From: a virus
Length of the DNA: 42,668 nt
IMG/VR virus record: IMGVR_UViG_3300037419_001219
Strand: one strand, 5' to 3'
In this document: one piece after another, positions 1-42,668 of the stretch
How positions within the stretch are numbered: the first letter of the stretch is position 1
Layout: every line of letters begins with the position of its first letter
The notes under the pieces: generated by a model
What the model saw: the letters and a program-made list of their open reading frames with translations, nothing else
Databases searched by the model: none
Told to the model about the DNA's origin: nothing
Translations under genes and position numbers: made by a program

Positions 1-127
1 TTATTCGGACGGCTATCTCGGAATAACGACGGCGCTCAACAAATGGCAGATCAGCGCTATTGACGACGCGACAAGCTGGGATGGGCTGGACTTTGCCACG
101 GCCGATGGCGACCCGGATGCACTGGTT
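1..127. repeat. Terminal direct repeat copy 1 (same as 42542..42668): circular or permuted-genome overlap
   Basis: Direct comparison shows bases 1-127 equal 42542-42668. An ORF crosses the junction in frame. Confidence 0.95.
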
Positions 128-14852: not shown

Positions 14853-15929
14853 TCAATTGAGAAGTATCTGTTTTCCTTCACTGTTTGTCGCCGAGTCGTT
14901 CACGGGTCCGGGTACCGAGGTACCAGTGGTGCACCTTATTTCCAGAGCCGTCGCCGCCTCCCGCAAATAGGCGGGATGAAAACGAGCGTAGTGTTTGCGC
15001 GTCGTCTCAATCGACGTGTGCCCCATAAATTCGGCGATGCGCTCCATCGAGACGCCTGCCTGGGCCATGTAGACGCCCGCTGTGTGTCGCAGGGTGTACT
15101 GGCTAACCCCAACGAGCCCGGCGCGCTTGGCGGCCGCCTTAACCCCGTTCCGGATGCTTTTTATCGGCCGGCCATCGACCTCGATGACGTGATCACAGGT
15201 CTTGACCTTGGAAGCCGTCTCGAGCTTCTCCAGCAACGTGGCGTTGATCGGAACGCGGGCGCGGCCCTTCTGCGTCTTGAACCGGGTCGGGTCGTCCAGG
15301 TTGACGATGCGGCGCGCGAGATCGACTCGCGGCCAGGTGAGCTCAAGAATGTGCTTCGGCCGGCCGGCAGTGGTCACAGAAAGGATGATGAACAGCTTGA
15401 CGTGCATCATCATCGCGCCGTCTATCAGAGCAAGCAGTTCTTCCATCGTCAGCCAGCGCTCGCGAGGGCGGCCCTGAGGCGGCTTGGCGATCTTCGGTGC
15501 CTTGTCGATGAGCTTGGCCTCTACGGCCCAATTCAGGGCGGCGGTGATGTATCCGAGGTCGTTCCTGATACCGCCGTTTGAGCATCCCATGGCCGTCCTG
15601 ATGGCGACGAACCGTTCGACTTGTTTCTCGTCGATCTCGGCGGCGGTCAGATCGCCCCAGATCGGTGCCAGCGTGCGGCCGACTTCCTTGATGCGGGTGA
15701 TGTTGACGACTTTGCCTTTCCGGTTCGCTTCGTACTTGTCGTAGATCATAGCGAGCGTGAGCCGCTCTGGCAGCTTCAGCCTTTCGGCCTCCCGGTTGAG
15801 GTCGCGGACAAAGCTTTTTGCATCCTCGACTTCCTGGATAGGCGCGACACGGCGGACGCGATCATTTGCTTTTCCGGTGACGGCACACCACTTCCCACGG
15901 TGCTTCCCAAGTCTCCACACGTCTTGCAT
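14853..15929 (-). CDS. int: Tyrosine recombinase / phage integrase
   Basis: The C-terminal block LRHTAGVYMAQAGVSMERIAEFMGHTSIETTRKHYARF matches the R..HxxR..Y catalytic region. Adjacent to the tRNA fragment. Confidence 0.9.
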   Translation of the reverse strand: MQDVWRLGKHRGKWCAVTGKANDRVRRVAPIQEVEDAKSFVRDLNREAERLKLPERLTLAMIYDKYEANRKGKVVNITRIKEVGRTLAPIWGDLTAAEIDEKQVERFVAIRTAMGCSNGGIRNDLGYITAALNWAVEAKLIDKAPKIAKPPQGRPRERWLTMEELLALIDGAMMMHVKLFIILSVTTAGRPKHILELTWPRVDLARRIVNLDDPTRFKTQKGRARVPINATLLEKLETASKVKTCDHVIEVDGRPIKSIRNGVKAAAKRAGLVGVSQYTLRHTAGVYMAQAGVSMERIAEFMGHTSIETTRKHYARFHPAYLREAATALEIRCTTGTSVPGPVNDSATNSEGKQILLN

Positions 15930-18680: not shown

Positions 18681-18841
18681 TTTTCCTGCCGTTCGATCTC
18701 AGTATCGGTATCGATCATGATGGTACGCACGAGACGCGGTCTGACTTCTGCTCTGTCTTTTTGATGAGCCCACTCAGAAATTAGGATACCTGCGAGCACG
18801 AACAGAAAGACGAGAATGATCGCTGAAGCGGTGTTGGTCAT
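18671..18841 (-). CDS. 56-aa single-TM membrane protein
   Basis: ATG at 18841 in ATGA overlap with the RecT stop. TM segment AIILVFLFVLAGILI. Confidence 0.5.
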   Translation of the reverse strand: MTNTASAIILVFLFVLAGILISEWAHQKDRAEVRPRLVRTIMIDTDTEIERQENWR

Positions 18842-19581
18842 TCGGCAGCCTCTTGCGTTGCTGCGAACGACTGCATCTTGTCGTCGAACTCGTCGTTGAG
18901 GATTTCGACCCAACGCGCAGGCATCTGATCCCAGTCGTCGGAATACGTTTGCCGGATGTGCGTCAGGTGCTCGGCGTTGAGCGCATCAGCGATCTCGGCC
19001 CGCAGCGCATTGAATGTCTTGTCGGTGCCGTCCTTCTTGGCGCCAGACGAGGATTTGCGCTTCGGCTCGTCTTCGATCTCTTCCCGGAAATAAAGGCCGC
19101 CAAGCACGTCTGCAGCGCCGTCGCGGCATGCATAGCCACGGGCACGCATTGCCCGCATACGCTCAGGGTATTGCGTCCAGGGCCCTGACTTGTTGGCGAG
19201 ACCGGCTTTCTTCGCATCGAGGTTCGAAAACTGACGCTCGATAACCGTTCCATCCGGTCGCGTGACTTCGCAGTAGGACGTGTCAGCATCGGCCCATTCG
19301 CGGATTTTGAAGCCCTTGGCCCAAAGCAGCGCCGGAACCGCATCACCCCACACAGTTGGCCGTCCATTGATGACAGCGATCTTGTTCATGGCGAACATCG
19401 GCGGCAAACCGATCTCAAGCCCGGTCATGATCGCGACCATGATCTTCTCTGGCGTGTTGAGGTCCTTCGGAGCCAAGCCGCTGATAGAAACAGCCTGCGC
19501 CAAGCGGAAGACCTCCTCGACGTTCTGCGGAATGATGCCTGCGATCTGTCCGCCAGACTTCAATGGGACAAGGTTGCTCAT
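18838..19581 (-). CDS. recT: RecT-family single-strand annealing recombinase
   Basis: GLEIGLPPMFAMNKIAVINGRPTVWGDA ... GPWTQYPERMRAMRARG matches the recalled RecT core. Confidence 0.8.
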   Translation of the reverse strand: MSNLVPLKSGGQIAGIIPQNVEEVFRLAQAVSISGLAPKDLNTPEKIMVAIMTGLEIGLPPMFAMNKIAVINGRPTVWGDAVPALLWAKGFKIREWADADTSYCEVTRPDGTVIERQFSNLDAKKAGLANKSGPWTQYPERMRAMRARGYACRDGAADVLGGLYFREEIEDEPKRKSSSGAKKDGTDKTFNALRAEIADALNAEHLTHIRQTYSDDWDQMPARWVEILNDEFDDKMQSFAATQEAAE

Positions 19582-20222: not shown

Positions 20223-20666
20223 TTAGTCTTCACATACCTGAACGATGCACCACTTGTTCAGCATGTGCGCGATGCCGCCGATCTTGTGCTCATGCTTCGG
20301 ACCGAAATCGCCCAGCGTGGCACGGACGTAACGCATGATTTTCGCTATGTCGTGTCCAGGCTTTGGAACGATGCCGAAATCAGAAAGTCTGCCGCCCTCG
20401 AAGAATAGATGCTGAAGCGCATCACAGAACGGTCCCCGACCGCTCTTCTCGTCGTTCGAGAGATCTTCCCACTTCGGCAATAGTTCAAGATATCGGGAAG
20501 GAAATGCACACTCGAGATCGCCAACCTCAGGGATACGGTCACCTGAGGTGTGAATAGATTCTTCCTGCCCGTAGTTTCCAAGCGACTTGGCGACAGAAGA
20601 CATCATCTTAGGGTCTTCTCCGCGGTAATTGGGCTGGAGGTGAGCTCGGCGTTGCTTCCTGCTCAT
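20223..20666 (-). CDS. Hypothetical early protein
   Basis: ATG at 20666 in ATGA overlap with the upstream stop. 147 aa. No recognisable motif. Confidence 0.55.
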   Translation of the reverse strand: MSRKQRRAHLQPNYRGEDPKMMSSVAKSLGNYGQEESIHTSGDRIPEVGDLECAFPSRYLELLPKWEDLSNDEKSGRGPFCDALQHLFFEGGRLSDFGIVPKPGHDIAKIMRYVRATLGDFGPKHEHKIGGIAHMLNKWCIVQVCED

Positions 20667-20983
20667 TCCGCAGCCTCGCGCGGTTCCCACTGCTTCTCAG
20701 CGATAGAGACAGACCAATCGTCGAGAAGGTCCTTGATCTCGCGGTCATATGCGGCTTCGATGGTGTCAGCCAATTCGCGCGCCCAAACCTCGACCTTCGT
20801 CACCGGGTTGACGAGAACGTCGACTTCAAGATCAGGCGTCTTTGATCGGAAACCTTCGACGCGAAGGTGAACGACATGGCCGTCGCAATCGATCTCAGCC
20901 GTTCCGTCGTACCCTTTGCCGTATTCGTCGCCATCAATGTAATGGCCGACTTCGAAATCCATGCTGATCACACCGACGTTCAT
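20663..20983 (-). CDS. Hypothetical acidic early protein
   Basis: 106-aa ORF, translationally coupled. Confidence 0.55.
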   Translation of the reverse strand: MNVGVISMDFEVGHYIDGDEYGKGYDGTAEIDCDGHVVHLRVEGFRSKTPDLEVDVLVNPVTKVEVWARELADTIEAAYDREIKDLLDDWSVSIAEKQWEPREAAE

Positions 20984-21183
20984 CTCTGTGCGTCCTTCTT
21001 TTGAAAATCAGCGACTGTGAGAGGCTCAAGGGCTCGAAGGCACCTTGTGAGGCAGAGCATGTCTTCGCGAAGCGCGAGCGGGGCTTTCTTTCCGCCGTTG
21101 GCTGCCATGAAGCATTCCGCGAGAACGACGGTCGCGCGCCTTGCTCTGATCAAATCATCATGCGTGATTTCGATGCTCGGCAT
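20980..21183 (-). CDS. First gene of the early-left operon, hypothetical
   Basis: ATG at 21183 preceded by AAGGAG at 8 nt. Confidence 0.55.
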   Translation of the reverse strand: MPSIEITHDDLIRARRATVVLAECFMAANGGKKAPLALREDMLCLTRCLRALEPLTVADFQKKDAQR

Positions 21184-21206
21184 CCAATGCGCTCCTTTTG
21201 AAAACC

Positions 21207-21251
21207 GGCCAGATGAGAGCAACCGTCCCTCAACGTTCGTCTCATCTGGCC
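21207..21251 (-). promoter_or_regulatory. Leader stem-loop II (perfect 12-bp stem), terminator-like on the minus strand
   Basis: GGCCAGATGAGA (21207-21218) pairs with TCTCATCTGGCC (21240-21251). On the minus strand it is followed by GGTTTTC, then the SD of the first early-left gene. Confidence 0.55.
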
Positions 21252-21415: not shown

Positions 21416-21456
21416 TCATTATCGCAAGATTTACTTGCACGCAAGAATTTCTTGCG
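21416..21456 (-). promoter_or_regulatory. OL-type operators overlapping a PL-like promoter
   Basis: Palindromes GCAAGATTTACTTGC (21424-21438) and CGCAAGAATTTCTTGCG (21440-21456). Minus-strand promoter: TTGCGT (21439-21444) N17 TAATGA (21416-21421), or N15 GATAAT. Confidence 0.6.
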
Positions 21457-21512: not shown

Positions 21513-22124
21513 TCAGAGTTGGGAAATGTGCGAAGCGAAGCGCCGCAATTGCTGGCGTGCGTGGCCGGTCAGGGAGCGCGGTCCCCACTGGCGCTTGGCC
21601 ATAGAAAAGGCTTCCTGCCACTCCGGTTGCGGGACGCGCCATAGGTCGACATGACCCGGATGTGGGTGCGGAATGTTCAGCAGCCGGAAGGCGAGGTTTG
21701 GCGCTCGGCGCCTGATTGCGTCTTCGATCTCGATTTCCCGTTCGCCGGCCGCGTAGGTCACGAACAGCAGGGCAGCATCGGGCCGGTCGATCATCGTCCG
21801 CAGCTTGGCGCAGAGGTGCTCATGGCGCGAGCGCGCGGTGTCGTAGCTGTCCAATCCCTCGGGAAACTCATGCGGATGGAACGTGCCGTAGCGGCGATTG
21901 CCGATGAACCCGTCCTGGTCGCGAACGTAGAGATCGTCACGCTCGAACATGCCGCGAAAGTCTGAATCGAAATAAGCGATCAGAGCATCGGTCGGGGTAT
22001 ATTGCGACGTGAAGGGATTATTTAGACGTTGATGACGCGGGAAGAATTTCCTGGCCTGCAAACCAGGCAGGCAGCTCGGCCCGAGACTGACGACATAATC
22101 GAAAACGAACCGGCGTTGAGCCAT
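21513..22124 (-). CDS. 203-aa protein co-transcribed with the repressor; possible DUF1796-type papain-like cysteine peptidase
   Basis: Its start overlaps the repressor stop (TAATG). VVSLGPSC..NPFTSQYTPTDALIAYFDSDFRGMF and HPHEF recall the DUF1796 SLGxxC ... PFDW ... HxF pattern. This is memory-based and not searched. Confidence 0.6.
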   Translation of the reverse strand: MAQRRFVFDYVVSLGPSCLPGLQARKFFPRHQRLNNPFTSQYTPTDALIAYFDSDFRGMFERDDLYVRDQDGFIGNRRYGTFHPHEFPEGLDSYDTARSRHEHLCAKLRTMIDRPDAALLFVTYAAGEREIEIEDAIRRRAPNLAFRLLNIPHPHPGHVDLWRVPQPEWQEAFSMAKRQWGPRSLTGHARQQLRRFASHISQL

Positions 22125-22780
22125 TATCTTTTCCGAGTTGTGCGCCGAAATTCTACGACAACGCCAAGTATATCGGCCGGATTCTTAGAATTGACAGTAT
22201 ACGTCGTTAAATCGGCATTGGGCGTCGTAAGATCAAACGCCTCGAATCCCGTGCTGTCTATTCCCCGAGAGACATAGGTGCGCAGAATAAGCGCGTCACC
22301 GGGGAAACTGGCCACAACAACGTCGTTGTCGATTGGCGAAATCTTCGGATCAACAATGCAGATGTCGCCCTCTTGGTAGAGAGGTTTCATCGAGTTGTCG
22401 CCAATAGAAACAGCAAAACACTCTTTGAAAGATTCTGATACAGCAAGCATATCGTCAGCATACGCGCGCAAACTATTTGGGAGATCTCGCGCGTCCCCCG
22501 CTTTTAATATTGTTTTTTCTATGCGTAGCAGCGGAATTTTATGCGACTCCAAAGTAACACTGTCAATGATCTTTGCCGGTTGAGCAAAAGGATCGAGTTT
22601 CGCGATATCAATTTTCAAAATGCGAGCAACTAGAACAGCACGCTTGCGCTTCGGTCCACTTGTACCTTTTTCCCATTGCTGCACGGTCTGCCGGCTGACC
22701 TCGAGCTTTTGCGCGAGGTCCTCCTGGCTGAGACCTGCCGCGGCGCGGGCGTCTCGAATGAGCTTTGCAATGGAAACCAT
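22124..22780 (-). CDS. CI-like lysogeny repressor (XRE HTH plus S24 LexA-type peptidase domain)
   Basis: LSQEDLAQKLEVSRQTVQQWEKG forms the HTH. An Ala-Gly site occurs in LKAGD. GDNSMKP supplies the Ser and a distal Lys is present. The ATG at 22780 has no SD. Confidence 0.85.
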   Translation of the reverse strand: MVSIAKLIRDARAAAGLSQEDLAQKLEVSRQTVQQWEKGTSGPKRKRAVLVARILKIDIAKLDPFAQPAKIIDSVTLESHKIPLLRIEKTILKAGDARDLPNSLRAYADDMLAVSESFKECFAVSIGDNSMKPLYQEGDICIVDPKISPIDNDVVVASFPGDALILRTYVSRGIDSTGFEAFDLTTPNADLTTYTVNSKNPADILGVVVEFRRTTRKR

Positions 22781-22783
22781 ACT

Positions 22784-22865
22784 TCGCGAATAAAGTTCGC
22801 GAGGCAAGTTCACAACGCAAGATAATATTGCTGGACCGTGGACAAACCGCAAGAATTTCTTGCGG
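22784..22865. promoter_or_regulatory. OR-type operator cluster between the divergent repressor and cro-like genes
   Basis: TCGCGAATAAAGTTCGCGA (22784-22802, 7-5-7). GCAAGATAATATTGC (22817-22831, one mismatch). CCGCAAGAATTTCTTGCGG (22847-22865, perfect 9-1-9, same core as 21440-21456). Confidence 0.65.
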
Positions 22866-22878
22866 ACGCCGAAATTCC

Positions 22879-23127
22879 ATGGCATATCGATTTGCCATGA
22901 ACGCAATCGCAGAAGCAATTTCGAAGGCTGGCGGCCCAACCAAACTTGGTCGGGCGCTCGGCATCACGCGTCAGGCCGTTGAGCAGTGGAAGGGGCGCGT
23001 CGTCCCTCCCGAGCACGTTCTTGCAATAGAGAAGCTGACCGGCGTCACGCGTTACGAGCTTCGCCCCGATATTTACGGACCACCACCGACAAACCCTAAG
23101 CATCGGGCCTCAGCCCGAGCTGCATAA
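22879..23127 (+). CDS. Cro-like / YdaS-type HTH protein
   Basis: KLGRALGITRQAVEQWKGRVVPPEHVLAIEKLTGVTRYELRPDIY matches the recalled YdaS/Cro-type pattern. An alternative ATG lies at 22897. Confidence 0.7.
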   Translation: MAYRFAMNAIAEAISKAGGPTKLGRALGITRQAVEQWKGRVVPPEHVLAIEKLTGVTRYELRPDIYGPPPTNPKHRASARAA

Positions 23128-23296
23128 GCAGTCCTGCGTTCCATCTAGTTCGCGTTGCGTGAGTTGGCTGGCGGTTATTGCCGTGGCCATCGGAGCAAGG
23201 ACTTTGCCTGGGTAATGATGCTCAGGATCGCCTCGCCCTGCAGCGAAAGCGCTCCGATGGTCACCGCTGTAAGCGTCCTTGGACTCCCCTGAACTT

Positions 23297-23325
23297 GGCC
23301 GGGGCTTCCCAGCTCCGGCCTTTTT
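23297..23325 (+). terminator. Rho-independent terminator after the cro-like gene
   Basis: GGCCGGGGC (23297-23305) pairs with GCTCCGGCC (23312-23320, one G-U), followed by TTTTT. Confidence 0.6.
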
Positions 23326-23350
23326 CTCCGAGGGTCCGCAAAAATGAAAA

Positions 23351-23381
23351 GAGCTGAATCCGGGGGCTCCAGATTCAGCTC
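23351..23381. promoter_or_regulatory. Perfect 10-bp stem-loop upstream of the replication genes
   Basis: GAGCTGAATC (23351-23360) pairs with GATTCAGCTC (23372-23381), with an 11-nt loop. A T-rich tract occurs only on the minus-strand side. Confidence 0.45.
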
Positions 23382-42096: not shown

Positions 42097-42668
42097 TGCC
42101 GGTCATCCCTTTCCAGCTCCCGACCGGATCGACAAAAGGCAAGTTTCTTCAGGGCGGCGCGTGCCGTCTGATCAACTGCTATGCCTCCGAGATCGGTCCT
42201 GAAGGCAAAGTTCCGCGTGCGATCTATTCAGCTGATGGCCTGCAGGGCTTTACGCTTCTGTCGGGTATCGCAGCAGGATTAGGAACGCGACAGGCCATTA
42301 ATCTGGACGATGCCGCTCTTTACGTCGTGGCAGGAACGGCGCTGTTCAAAGTCACGCCGAACGGCGCACAGACGCTCATTGGGTCGATGAACATCTCGAC
42401 GACGGCGCCGGTGTTCATGGCGCGCAACCGTCGCGTTCCGGCCGATGTGACAATCGTCTGCGACGGCCTGATGTACAACTGCCGTAATGATGTCCTGTCT
42501 CAGGTGACTGACGCTGACCTCTCAGGCCCGACATCGCTGGCTTATTCGGACGGCTATCTCGGAATAACGACGGCGCTCAACAAATGGCAGATCAGCGCTA
42601 TTGACGACGCGACAAGCTGGGATGGGCTGGACTTTGCCACGGCCGATGGCGACCCGGATGCACTGGTT
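42096..42668 (+). CDS. P22 gp10-like tail hub protein, 5-prime part (continues at 2..979)
   Basis: ATGA overlap with the upstream stop. The ORF is open to the window end and in frame with 2..979 through the 127-bp overlap. Confidence 0.75.
   Translation, partial: MPVIPFQLPTGSTKGKFLQGGACRLINCYASEIGPEGKVPRAIYSADGLQGFTLLSGIAAGLGTRQAINLDDAALYVVAGTALFKVTPNGAQTLIGSMNISTTAPVFMARNRRVPADVTIVCDGLMYNCRNDVLSQVTDADLSGPTSLAYSDGYLGITTALNKWQISAIDDATSWDGLDFATADGDPDALV
42542..42668. repeat. Terminal direct repeat copy 2 (same as 1..127)
   Basis: Identical by direct comparison. Confidence 0.95.

What the first reader, a model, noticed from the sequence alone, without database searches (positions are those of the whole stretch)
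21513..22780. 203-aa gene translationally coupled to the CI-like repressor, in the lambda rexAB-equivalent slot; possible papain-like peptidase
The repressor stop and the 203-aa start overlap (TAATG at 22124-22126), so both are read from the maintenance promoter. The pair is bracketed by operator clusters sharing the core CGCAAGAATTTCTTGCG (21440-21456 and 22847-22865). That geometry matches lambda PL/OL-rexB-rexA-cI-OR/PR, where the passenger genes are a defence system. The protein begins VVSLGPSC..NPFTSQYTPTDALIAYFDSDFRGMF and later has HPHEF. From memory this resembles the uncharacterised DUF1796 putative papain-like cysteine peptidase family (SLGxxC, PFDW, HxF). I know of no described prophage exclusion system built on that family.
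Basis: partly seen in the sequence, partly recalled or inferred. Interest (0 to 1): 0.72.

Follow-up and report, generated by a model that had tools for sequence, protein, structure and literature searches.

The report
Repressor-coupled DUF1796 enzyme gene in phage
A complete temperate phage carries, fused stop-to-start behind its CI-like repressor gene, a well-conserved gene for a divergent member of the uncharacterised DUF1796 enzyme family; it looks like a lysogen-expressed passenger gene whose "papain-like peptidase" label and defence role remain unproven.

Summary
A 203-aa ORF (21513-22124, minus strand) starts inside the stop codon of a CI-like HTH+S24 repressor (TAATG). The pair is bracketed by the only three perfect GCAAG-N5-CTTGC palindromes in the 42.7-kb window, which is a circular, complete temperate phage.

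The gene is real: dN/dS is 0.076 against an 85%-identical orthologue. It belongs to the DUF1796 (PF08795) superfamily. Its own Pfam score is below threshold (13.8 bits against 23). However, a profile-profile comparison with PF08795-annotated proteins gives 99.9% probability (E 2.6e-31). Its pLDDT-93 model also matches giant-virus DUF1796 models.

Cys18 and His85 are kept. The canonical Asp-Trp of the FDW motif is lost.

The "papain-like" label is not supported. Two confident family models find no papain-like or any other significant PDB match, and they look like Rossmann-type alpha/beta folds.

Homologues do not recur next to repressors. In other phages they sit at varied accessory-gene positions. 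Distant family members are repeatedly fused or adjacent to sulfo- and glycosyltransferases and capsule genes.

Best reading: a lysogen-expressed accessory enzyme, giving conversion or exclusion and possibly acting on a glycan. Its function is untested. It is a new member of a known kind and of moderate interest.

The parts
21513..22124 (-). 203-aa gene for a soluble, basic (pI 9.3), divergent DUF1796-family protein. Key codons: Cys18 at 22073-22071, Asp64 at 21935-21933, His83 at 21878-21876, His85 at 21872-21870.
   Evidence: ORF. dN/dS is 0.076 against the L001 orthologue. Family assignment. AF2 pLDDT 93.4. No transmembrane segment.
22122..22126 (-). TAATG stop/start overlap between the repressor and the 203-aa gene (translational coupling). 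The TAATG is conserved in the L001 locus.
22124..22780 (-). CI-like repressor, 218 aa (HTH_3 + Peptidase_S24). The Ala-Gly site and the Ser of GDNSM are present. The catalytic Lys position aligns to Arg.
   Evidence: Pfam and PHROG phrog_4 hits. Alignment with lambda CI and LexA.
21424..21455 (.). Left operator pair: two perfect GCAAG-N5-CTTGC palindromes (21424-38, 21441-55) between the 203-aa gene and the leftward early operon.
22817..22863 (.). Right operator pair (22817-31 with one mismatch, 22849-63 perfect) between cI and cro.
22879..23127 (+). Cro/YdaS-like small HTH gene, divergent from cI.
   Evidence: Pfam YdaS_toxin E 2.6e-22 and P22_Cro E 7.8e-10. phrog_35.
20980..21222 (-). First ORF (80 aa) of the leftward early operon, which continues to RecT (18838-19581) and the integrase (14853-15929). 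It defines the PL-like side of the immunity region.

Best explanation
The 203-aa ORF is a genuine, selected gene. It encodes a soluble, divergent DUF1796-family enzyme with a Rossmann-like alpha/beta fold. Invariant Cys18 sits at the N-cap of helix 1, His85 sits just after a beta-strand, and Asp64 is conserved.

The gene is a passenger (moron) of the immunity operon of a complete ~42.5-kb temperate phage, probably of Hyphomicrobiales. It starts inside the repressor's stop codon, no terminator lies between the two genes, and operators bracket the pair. I therefore infer that it is transcribed from the repressor-maintenance promoter and translated by coupling to cI, so it is made continuously at a low level in lysogens.

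It is not a dedicated partner of the repressor. Relatives sit at quite different accessory-gene positions in other phages and as single genes in chromosomes.

The most likely job is a lysogen-expressed accessory enzyme that alters the host cell (lysogenic conversion or superinfection exclusion) through Cys-based acyl-enzyme chemistry, either hydrolase or acyltransferase. The family's repeated fusion or adjacency to sulfotransferases, glycosyltransferases and capsule or Wzz genes makes an envelope-glycan precursor the most plausible substrate class, rather than a protein.

Shown: the gene, purifying selection, the family, the fold class, the geometry and the varied phage contexts. Inferred: co-transcription, enzymatic activity, the glycan substrate and any protective phenotype.

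Sub-claim confidences:
- real gene: 0.97
- DUF1796 superfamily: 0.9
- expressed with cI: 0.75
- moron: 0.8
- conversion or exclusion role: 0.45
- glycan target: 0.25-0.3
For: Geometry.

Selection: dN/dS 0.076, dS 1.14. The orthologue is intact in L001-3, where the upstream repressor is 5'-truncated and frameshifted.

Family.

Fold:
- pLDDT 93.4.
- BFVD hits to giant-virus proteins of this family at E 1.9e-9 to 5e-4, TMq 0.53-0.68.
- Conserved C18, T43, D64 and H85, plus several Arg and His.

Varied phage positions:
- L004: between tail-fibre genes and sheath, on the opposite strand.
- L014: before the SU10 adaptor.
- L015-19: opposite strand between a 684-aa virion structural protein and a 117-aa gene of the same kind of module.
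- L006: after a GH108 endolysin.
- L037: inside an array of small phage-like genes.

Glycan links:
- P0109 is a DUF1796+Sulfotransfer_3 fusion next to GT2/GT4 and methyltransferase genes.
- P0181 lies inside a GT4/ABC-2/Capsule_synth cluster.
- L005 lies directly after a Kelch-GT4 gene, and L012 is next to Wzz/GNVR.
- The best BFVD structural hit is a 615-aa 'Glycosyltransferase'.

Against: - No expression data exist. The consensus scan found no promoter, so PRM-driven co-transcription is inferred from layout only.
- The glycan-linked contexts are all in distant canonical DUF1796 members. The closest chromosomal relatives (Mesorhizobium, L007, L010, L011, L020) sit next to unrelated housekeeping genes.
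- The window clade has lost the Asp-Trp that is invariant in canonical members, so its chemistry or substrate may differ, or it may be catalytically impaired.
- The protein is cytoplasmic and has no membrane segment, unlike classic O-antigen conversion enzymes.
- PADLOC, PHROGs and NCBIfam give no functional hit.
- The counts of contexts are small and were read post hoc.
Confidence: 0.4

Rival explanations
1. The protein is a papain-like cysteine peptidase that acts as a Rex-like intracellular exclusion or abortive-infection effector. It is expressed with cI and cleaves a phage or host protein when a superinfecting phage arrives.
For: - It occupies the rex-equivalent slot and is coupled to cI.
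- Cys18 is invariant at a helix N-cap and His85 follows a strand, as in thiol peptidases.
- Relatives occupy accessory slots of other phages, one resembling the tail-gene accessory hotspot of P2 (PMC13586616).
- Pfam and NCBI name the family a putative cysteine peptidase.
Against: - No papain-like or other peptidase structure matches two confident models. The best PDB E-values are 0.22 and 2.3e-3, with TM below 0.3.
- The secondary-structure order is strand-loop-helix plus parallel strands, typical of Rossmann-like folds.
- PADLOC finds nothing.
- Family fusions and neighbours point to glycan enzymes, not proteolysis.
- The 'peptidase' label has no experimental or literature basis in the held library.
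Confidence: 0.2
2. ImmA-like model. The protein is a dedicated anti-repressor or processing protease, or a switch modulator, for its own CI, which may not self-cleave because the S24 catalytic Lys is replaced by Arg.
For: - The gene lies immediately downstream of, and overlaps, the repressor gene. From memory, ImmR-ImmA of ICEBs1 has the same layout.
- In the alignment with lambda CI (K192) and LexA (K156), the window repressor has Arg at the Lys position, while keeping the Ala-Gly site and the Ser.
- Lambda RexA itself modulates the switch (bioRxiv 10.1101/2021.04.19.439022).
Against: - Adjacency to a repressor is not conserved. Across 36 loci only the window's own lineage shows it.
- In L001-3 the repressor is truncated and frameshifted while the 203-aa gene stays intact and constrained.
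- Relatives are single chromosomal genes or sit in structural modules.
- There is no metalloprotease or M78 signature.
Confidence: 0.07
3. A passenger with no lysogen phenotype. The gene serves the lytic cycle (for example modification of virions or of a host metabolite) or is a neutral or selfish hitch-hiker, and its position behind cI is a historical accident of mosaic recombination.
For: - In several phages the homologue sits in structural or lysis modules, sometimes on the same strand as late genes (L014, L006).
- Mosaic junctions coincide with the gene's stop codon and with the middle of the cI C-terminal domain.
- The cI gene is the compositionally odd one (GC 49.5% against 60.5% for the gene), which suggests an immunity-module swap that could have created the junction.
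Against: - The exact TAATG coupling is conserved between two lineages that have diverged to dS above 1.
- Purifying selection is strong.
- Opposite-strand insertions in L004 and L015-19 are typical of independently expressed morons.
Confidence: 0.2
4. Not a gene: a chance ORF in GC-rich DNA.
For: High-GC sequence yields many long spurious ORFs.
Against: - 887 family representatives at E<=1e-3.
- dN/dS 0.076.
- AF2 pLDDT 93.4.
Confidence: 0.01

Closest known systems
Pfam PF08795 / DUF1796 ('putative papain-like cysteine peptidase'; NCBI 'DUF1796 family putative cysteine peptidase')
   Same: - Homologous over about 170 columns (hhalign 99.86%, E 2.6e-31).
- Shares the SLGxxC motif with its invariant Cys, the HxHEF-type His motif, and conserved C-terminal Trp residues.
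- Same predicted fold as giant-virus proteins of this family.
   Different: - Scores below Pfam's gathering threshold (13.8 against 23 bits).
- Lacks the Asp-Trp of FDW, which is invariant in canonical members. The window has Thr-Ser and the phage-linked subclade has Ser-Tyr.
- Has a C-terminal amphipathic helix conserved in its own subclade.
- The family has no solved structure, no literature and no tested function.
Lambda cI-rexA-rexB immunity operon
   Same: Passenger coding sequence directly downstream of cI, on the same strand, between the OR and OL operator clusters. It is presumably read from the maintenance promoter in lysogens (lambda facts from bioRxiv 10.1101/2021.04.19.439022 and PMC11077077).
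   Different: - One gene instead of two.
- No sequence or PADLOC similarity to RexA or RexB.
- No membrane component.
- Stop-start overlap with cI.
- Two rather than three operators detected on each side.
- No exclusion phenotype known.
ImmR-ImmA type repressor/anti-repressor protease pairs (ICEBs1 and Gram-positive phages; from memory)
   Same: A putative hydrolase gene sits immediately after, and overlaps, the repressor gene.
   Different: - ImmA is a Zn metalloprotease whose linkage to its repressor is conserved.
- Here the linkage is confined to one lineage, and the gene outlives the repressor in L001-3.
Phage lysogenic-conversion glycan-modifying genes (Sf6 oac, P22/SfV gtrABC; from memory) and superinfection-exclusion morons (review PMC11436027)
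   Same: - Prophage-expressed accessory enzymes that change the host and can block related phages.
- DUF1796 relatives are fused or adjacent to sulfo- and glycosyltransferases, Wzz and capsule genes.
   Different: - Those enzymes are membrane proteins of unrelated families and usually sit near int/att.
- This protein is soluble and sits in the immunity operon.
- No glycan phenotype has been shown.
P2 accessory hotspots (old/tin; Z/fun and tail-gene hotspot) - PMC9122126, PMC13586616
   Same: In L004 the homologue sits, on the opposite strand, between tail-fibre genes and the sheath-tube-tape measure genes of a contractile-tailed phage. This is an accessory slot within the tail genes.
   Different: L004 is not a demonstrated P2 relative. 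That concerns a homologue (41% identity), not the window gene.

Membership tests
Pfam PF08795 (DUF1796) | Score at or above the curated gathering threshold (23 bits) against the Pfam HMM | tested here: not met
   13.8 bits, E 0.052, covering residues 11-69 only. It is nevertheless the sole Pfam hit for all 5 close homologues, best E 0.005.
Pfam PF08795 (DUF1796) | Homology to bona fide members shown by profile methods | tested here: met
   - hhalign of A1 against 40 PF08795-annotated proteins: 99.86% probability, E 2.6e-31, 170 columns.
- 30 of 70 relatives hit PF08795, best E 2.6e-22.
- A profile search returns proteins nearly all pre-annotated as PF08795.
Pfam PF08795 (DUF1796) | Conserved motifs SLGxxC, FDW and HxF | tested here: inconclusive
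   SLGPSC and HPHEF are present (C18 in 70 of 70 sequences, H85 in 68 of 70). FDW is replaced by FTS, although D and W are invariant in the 40 canonical members.
Pfam PF08795 (DUF1796) | Same three-dimensional fold as other members | tested here: met
   The pLDDT-93.4 model matches giant-virus proteins annotated 'papain-like cysteine peptidase' (taken here to be DUF1796 members) at probability 1.00, E 2e-6 to 5e-4, TMq 0.53-0.57. It also matches a 615-aa viral 'Glycosyltransferase' at E 1.9e-9, TMq 0.68.
Papain-like cysteine peptidases (clan CA) | Papain-like alpha+beta fold recognisably similar to solved members | tested here: not met
   - Foldseek against PDB with the window model: best E 0.22, TM at most 0.29, no peptidase among the top 50.
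- With a canonical member (P0181, pLDDT 87.7): best E 2.3e-3, TM about 0.2, VWA/Rossmann-type hits only.
- A profile search against PDB sequences found nothing.
Papain-like cysteine peptidases (clan CA) | Catalytic Cys at the N-terminus of a helix paired with a His on a beta-strand, in contact | tested here: inconclusive
   In the DSSP string of the model, C18 immediately precedes helix 19-27 and H85 follows strand 81-83.
Papain-like cysteine peptidases (clan CA) | Peptide-bond hydrolysis | not testable with these tools
   Needs biochemistry. There is no literature on the family.
Lambda Rex-type, cI-linked exclusion system | Passenger gene(s) between cI and OL on the cI strand, with no intervening terminator | tested here: met
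Lambda Rex-type, cI-linked exclusion system | Homology to RexA/RexB or any catalogued defence protein | tested here: not met
   PADLOC gave 0 families. PHROGs and NCBIfam gave nothing significant.
Lambda Rex-type, cI-linked exclusion system | Transcription in lysogens and exclusion of superinfecting phage | not testable with these tools
   Needs RNA-seq and phage challenge.
ImmA-like anti-repressor proteases | Conserved linkage to a repressor gene, and a metalloprotease motif | tested here: not met
   tblastn of the window CI and lambda CI against 36 loci finds only the L001-3 remnant. There is no M78 or HEXXH family hit.

The most novel reading that the evidence does not exclude
DUF1796 proteins are a new class of single-gene, prophage-borne host-conversion or superinfection-exclusion enzymes. 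They would have a previously unsolved Rossmann-like Cys/His fold, mislabelled as papain-like. In lysogens they would be expressed from the repressor operon and protect the cell, either by tailoring an envelope glycan used as a phage receptor or by an intracellular thiol-dependent reaction. This would give the first function for a family found from Alphaproteobacteria to giant viruses.
Probability: 0.25. Interest if true: 0.65.

Novelty: new member of a known kind. Interest (0 to 1): 0.42.

Why it matters
Genes that ride in the repressor operon of temperate phages have repeatedly turned out to be defence or conversion functions, rexAB being the classic case. This one belongs to a widespread family with no solved structure, no tested function and essentially no literature: 887 representative clusters, from bacteria to giant viruses.

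The window offers a clean, testable handle. It is a single small soluble gene with an obvious catalytic Cys to mutate, and it sits in a defined regulatory context.

The work here also corrects the family's label. The fold evidence does not support 'papain-like peptidase', and the fusion and neighbourhood evidence points toward glycan tailoring.

If a phenotype is found, it would add a new enzyme family to prophage-mediated exclusion or lysogenic conversion in Hyphomicrobiales, which are plant-associated bacteria. If none is found, this is an ordinary moron of unknown function.

Tried and rejected
- PADLOC, NCBIfam and PHROGs scans of the 203-aa protein gave nothing significant.
- PDB sequence searches with the single protein and with the 70-sequence profile gave only noise, E at least 0.087.
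- Foldseek against PDB with two models gave no significant hit. The weak top hits (alpha/beta hydrolases, CARF, VWA, sirtuin, ADP-ribosyl cyclase) have TM below 0.3 and were not interpreted beyond 'Rossmann-like'.
- tblastn of three family members against 50,697 deposited phage genomes gave no match.
- The word-indexed protein search found only 5 homologues. The exhaustive profile search was needed.
- The sigma-70 promoter scan found 0 sites, so I give no promoter coordinates.
- Rfam found nothing in the region beyond two sub-threshold sRNA matches downstream of cro.
- Literature searches returned one irrelevant paper for DUF1796 and none for PF08795.
- I considered a similarity of SLGPSC to the LMW-PTP CX5R loop and to the SGNH 'GDSL' block, both from memory. 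I rejected both because there is no Arg after the Cys, Ser13 is not invariant, and no such structures appear in the fold searches.
- I considered the ImmA-like anti-repressor idea and ranked it low.
- The 'not a gene' reading is rejected.
Full report
**1. The observation**

The ORF list and the raw sequence show a 203-aa ORF at 21513..22124 on the minus strand. Its ATG (22124-22122) shares its A with the TAA stop (22126-22124) of the upstream ORF.

The upstream ORF, read from the ATG at 22780, is a 218-aa protein with HTH_3 (E 2e-14) and Peptidase_S24 (E 2e-10) domains. It matches the phage repressor family phrog_4 (E 1e-24).

A Cro/YdaS-like gene (22879-23127, plus strand) diverges from it. 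To the left, a minus-strand early operon runs from 21222 through a RecT-like gene to a tyrosine integrase. To the right lie DnaD-like and DnaB-like genes.

The 17-mer CGCAAGAATTTCTTGCG occurs exactly twice, at 21440-56 and 22848-64. With up to 3 mismatches there are 6 matches against 0.26 expected. Its core palindrome GCAAG-N5-CTTGC has three perfect copies in the whole window and one copy with one mismatch. These form two adjacent sites on the left of the pair and two on the right.

No terminator-like hairpin separates the two genes, and the promoter consensus scan found nothing in the region.

The window has a 127-bp terminal overlap. It also encodes terminase, portal, major head and tail-fibre proteins. 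It is therefore a circularly assembled, complete temperate phage of about 42.5 kb.

**2. The gene is real and under selection**

The exact protein is on record only from this contig. An 85%-identical orthologue (P0002) lies on three identical short contigs (L001-3). Nei-Gojobori counting gives dN 0.086, dS 1.14 and dN/dS 0.076.

DNA similarity between L001 and the window (78.6%) covers only the last ~200 nt of cI plus the whole 203-aa gene, and stops two bases after its stop codon. In L001 the repressor frame is cut by a stop on its 5' side and shifted by a 2-nt insertion. The TAATG junction and the 203-aa ORF are intact. The passenger has therefore outlived its repressor there.

An exhaustive profile search found 887 representative clusters at E<=1e-3, of which 68 are at E<=1e-30.

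The gene's composition (GC 60.5%, GC3 71%) matches the phage. The cI gene is the outlier (GC 49.5%, GC3 50%).

The protein is basic (pI 9.3) and has no hydrophobic segment.

**3. Family**

Alone, the protein hits only PF08795/DUF1796, and below threshold (13.8 bits against 23, E 0.052). All five close homologues have the same sole hit.

Of 70 aligned representatives, 30 hit PF08795 at E<=0.01, with a best E of 2.6e-22. A profile search of the large protein collection returns proteins almost all pre-annotated as PF08795, and NCBI names them 'DUF1796 family putative cysteine peptidase'.

A profile-profile comparison of the window clade (A1) with 40 PF08795-annotated proteins that exclude that clade (A7) gives 99.86% probability, E 2.6e-31, over 170 columns. 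Membership of the DUF1796 superfamily is therefore well supported, as a divergent branch.

Conservation across 70 sequences is as follows:
- G15, C18 and T43: 70 of 70.
- H85: 68 of 70.
- D64: 63 of 70.
- H83: 55 of 70.
- Several Arg residues (26, 78, 98, 100, 109) and H101 are also conserved.

The Asp-Trp of the FDW motif is invariant in the canonical set. It is Thr-Ser in the window protein and Ser-Tyr in its nearest, partly phage-borne relatives. That defining motif is not met. This may mean changed chemistry.

**4. Fold and the 'papain-like' label**

AlphaFold2 with the 70-sequence alignment gives pLDDT 93.4 and pTM 0.87. The order of elements is:
- strand 10-13
- the SLGPSC loop
- helix 19-27
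- short helices
- a three-strand meander (65-67, 74-76, 81-83) followed by HPHEF
- a long helix 90-113
- two strand-helix units (117-122/128-140 and 145-150)
- C-terminal helices

Against BFVD the model matches giant-virus proteins annotated '(putative) papain-like cysteine peptidase', which I take to be DUF1796 members, at probability 1.00, E 2e-6 to 5e-4 and TMq 0.53-0.57. The best match is a 615-aa 'Glycosyltransferase' of Pyramimonas orientalis virus (E 1.9e-9, TMq 0.68).

Against the PDB nothing is significant. The best E is 0.22 and TM is at most 0.29. The weak hits are alpha/beta hydrolases and CARF domains.

A second model, of the canonical member P0181 (pLDDT 87.7), also finds no peptidase. 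Its best E is 2.3e-3 at TM ~0.2, with VWA, sirtuin and P-loop type hits. A profile search of PDB sequences is empty.

The local picture is compatible with a thiol enzyme: Cys at a helix N-cap and His after a strand. The global fold looks Rossmann-like and has no solved relative. The papain-like assignment is a name, not a finding. I could not measure the Cys-His distance because model coordinates are not exposed.

**5. Where relatives live**

*(a) Link to repressors.* tblastn of the window's CI, lambda CI, Cro, integrase, terminase and other phage proteins against all 36 fetched loci finds only the CI remnant of L001-3.

*(b) Other phages.* Relatives occupy different accessory positions:
- L004/L030 (IMG/VR, 38.7 kb): on the opposite strand between tail-fibre genes and the sheath, tube and tape-measure genes. 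This resembles the accessory hotspot within the P2 tail genes (PMC13586616).
- L014: just before an SU10-type adaptor gene.
- L015-19: on the opposite strand between a 684-aa virion structural protein and a 117-aa gene of the same kind of module.
- L006: right after a GH108+PG_binding_3 endolysin.
- L037: in a run of small unannotated genes with an HNH gene.

Different insertion points and orientations in similar modules are the hallmark of morons. No deposited phage genome carries a detectable homologue.

*(c) Chromosomes.* Relatives occur in Mesorhizobium, Devosia, Aminobacter and Pseudaminobacter, which suggests a Hyphomicrobiales host for the window phage. Many sit beside unrelated housekeeping genes.

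*(d) A recurrent glycan theme among more distant members:*
- P0109 is a DUF1796+Sulfotransfer_3 fusion flanked by GT2/GT4 and methyltransferase genes.
- P0181 (Paraburkholderia bryophila) lies between a 1364-aa multi-GT4 protein and further GT4 genes, with an ABC-2 exporter and Capsule_synth nearby.
- The L005 copy directly follows a Kelch-GT4 glycosyltransferase, and the L012 copy neighbours a Wzz/GNVR co-polymerase.
- The top viral structural match is annotated as a glycosyltransferase.

That is four of about fourteen non-phage contexts, plus one viral fusion. This is a lead, not a proof.

**6. How it most likely works**

*Shown:* a constrained gene for a DUF1796-type protein sits stop-to-start behind cI, inside the operator-bracketed immunity region of a complete temperate phage.

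*Inferred:* it is transcribed with cI from the maintenance promoter and translated by coupling. It would therefore be present in every lysogen at a level tied to the repressor.

Its relatives behave as mobile accessory genes, and the gene persists where the repressor has decayed. I therefore read it as a moron whose product acts on the host cell, not on the repressor.

The invariant Cys, with His and Asp, suggests covalent thiol catalysis, either hydrolase or acyltransferase. The family's company suggests a glycan or glycan-precursor substrate. The expected outcome would be lysogenic conversion or superinfection exclusion.

I put 0.4 on this overall reading and only ~0.25-0.3 on the glycan part.

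Rivals:
- A Rex-like intracellular peptidase effector (0.2).
- A passenger with no lysogen phenotype, or with a lytic-cycle role (0.2).
- An ImmA-like partner of a CI whose catalytic Lys aligns to Arg (0.07).
- Not a gene (refuted).

**7. Comparison with what is known**

In layout the locus works like the lambda cI-rexAB operon (bioRxiv 10.1101/2021.04.19.439022; PMC11077077) and other prophage defence genes placed next to repressors (for example BstA, bioRxiv 10.1101/2020.07.13.199331). It shares no protein family with them.

It is a divergent member of DUF1796. It fails the Pfam threshold and the FDW motif but passes the profile and fold tests. It is not shown to be a papain-like peptidase.

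**8. Verdict**

The peptidase and defence interpretations are unproven, and the peptidase part is weakened.

It is a new member of a known kind: a passenger gene of a phage immunity operon, drawn from an uncharacterised enzyme family.

Interest is moderate (0.42). The locus is a convenient entry point to a function-less, structure-less family, but nothing here yet shows an unusual mechanism.

**Limits**
- There are no expression or phenotype data.
- Contexts were sampled, not surveyed.
- Several contigs are short.

Noticed in passing
window 22124-22780 (minus strand), near residue 168 of the repressor: The CI-like repressor keeps the Ala-Gly cleavage site (LKAGD) and the S24 nucleophile Ser (GDNSM). 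However, the position of the catalytic Lys (lambda K192, LexA K156) aligns to Arg (LILR-TYV), and there is no Lys nearby. The L001 remnant also has Arg there. The repressor may self-cleave poorly or not at all.
   Followed up: partly
window 22124-22780 compared with the rest of the window: The cI gene is compositionally foreign (GC 49.5%, GC3 50%) in a phage of GC 57% with GC3 about 70%. The 203-aa gene (GC 60.5%) is not. This suggests a recent swap of the immunity specificity module.
   Followed up: no
window 1-127 and 42542-42668: A 127-bp identical terminal overlap shows that the contig is a circular assembly of a complete phage genome.
   Followed up: yes
L001 1-615 (also L002, L003): In the locus of the 85%-identical orthologue, only the last ~65 codons of the repressor remain. 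They are preceded by stops in all frames and carry a 2-nt insertion, while the 203-aa gene is intact. DNA similarity to the window starts inside cI and ends 2 nt after the passenger's stop codon. This looks like a mosaic cassette or a decayed prophage.
   Followed up: partly
window 22784-22802 (minus strand): A 7-bp-stem hairpin (TCGCGAACTTTATTCGCGA) ends 3 nt before the cI ATG, and there is no obvious Shine-Dalgarno sequence. It could be a leader structure affecting cI translation, or cI may be read from a near-leaderless transcript.
   Followed up: no
window 23254-23381: Two convergent terminator-like hairpins (23297-23320 on the plus strand, 23381-23351 on the minus strand) lie between cro and the DnaD-like gene, in a tR1-like position. 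Sub-threshold Rfam sRNA matches (suhB/mmgR E 0.11, SorY E 0.14) overlap the first hairpin.
   Followed up: no
P0109 (L022 7001-8344); P0193: Domain fusions of DUF1796 were seen. P0109 is fused with Sulfotransfer_3 and lies beside GT2/GT4 and methyltransferase genes. P0193 is fused with DUF7024. P0104 carries two DUF1796 stretches.
   Followed up: partly
L005 405-1124 (minus strand) and L013 5109-5897 (minus strand): Two unrelated loci carrying a DUF1796 homologue also share a nearby protein of about 240-260 aa with a common N-terminal motif (..GAAMLLDFI..). It has no Pfam hit.
   Followed up: no
window 20223-20690 (minus strand): This early-left ORF (155 aa) matches only phrog_36680, a family of unknown function. 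Its neighbours 20663-20983 and 20980-21222 have no family at all.
   Followed up: no
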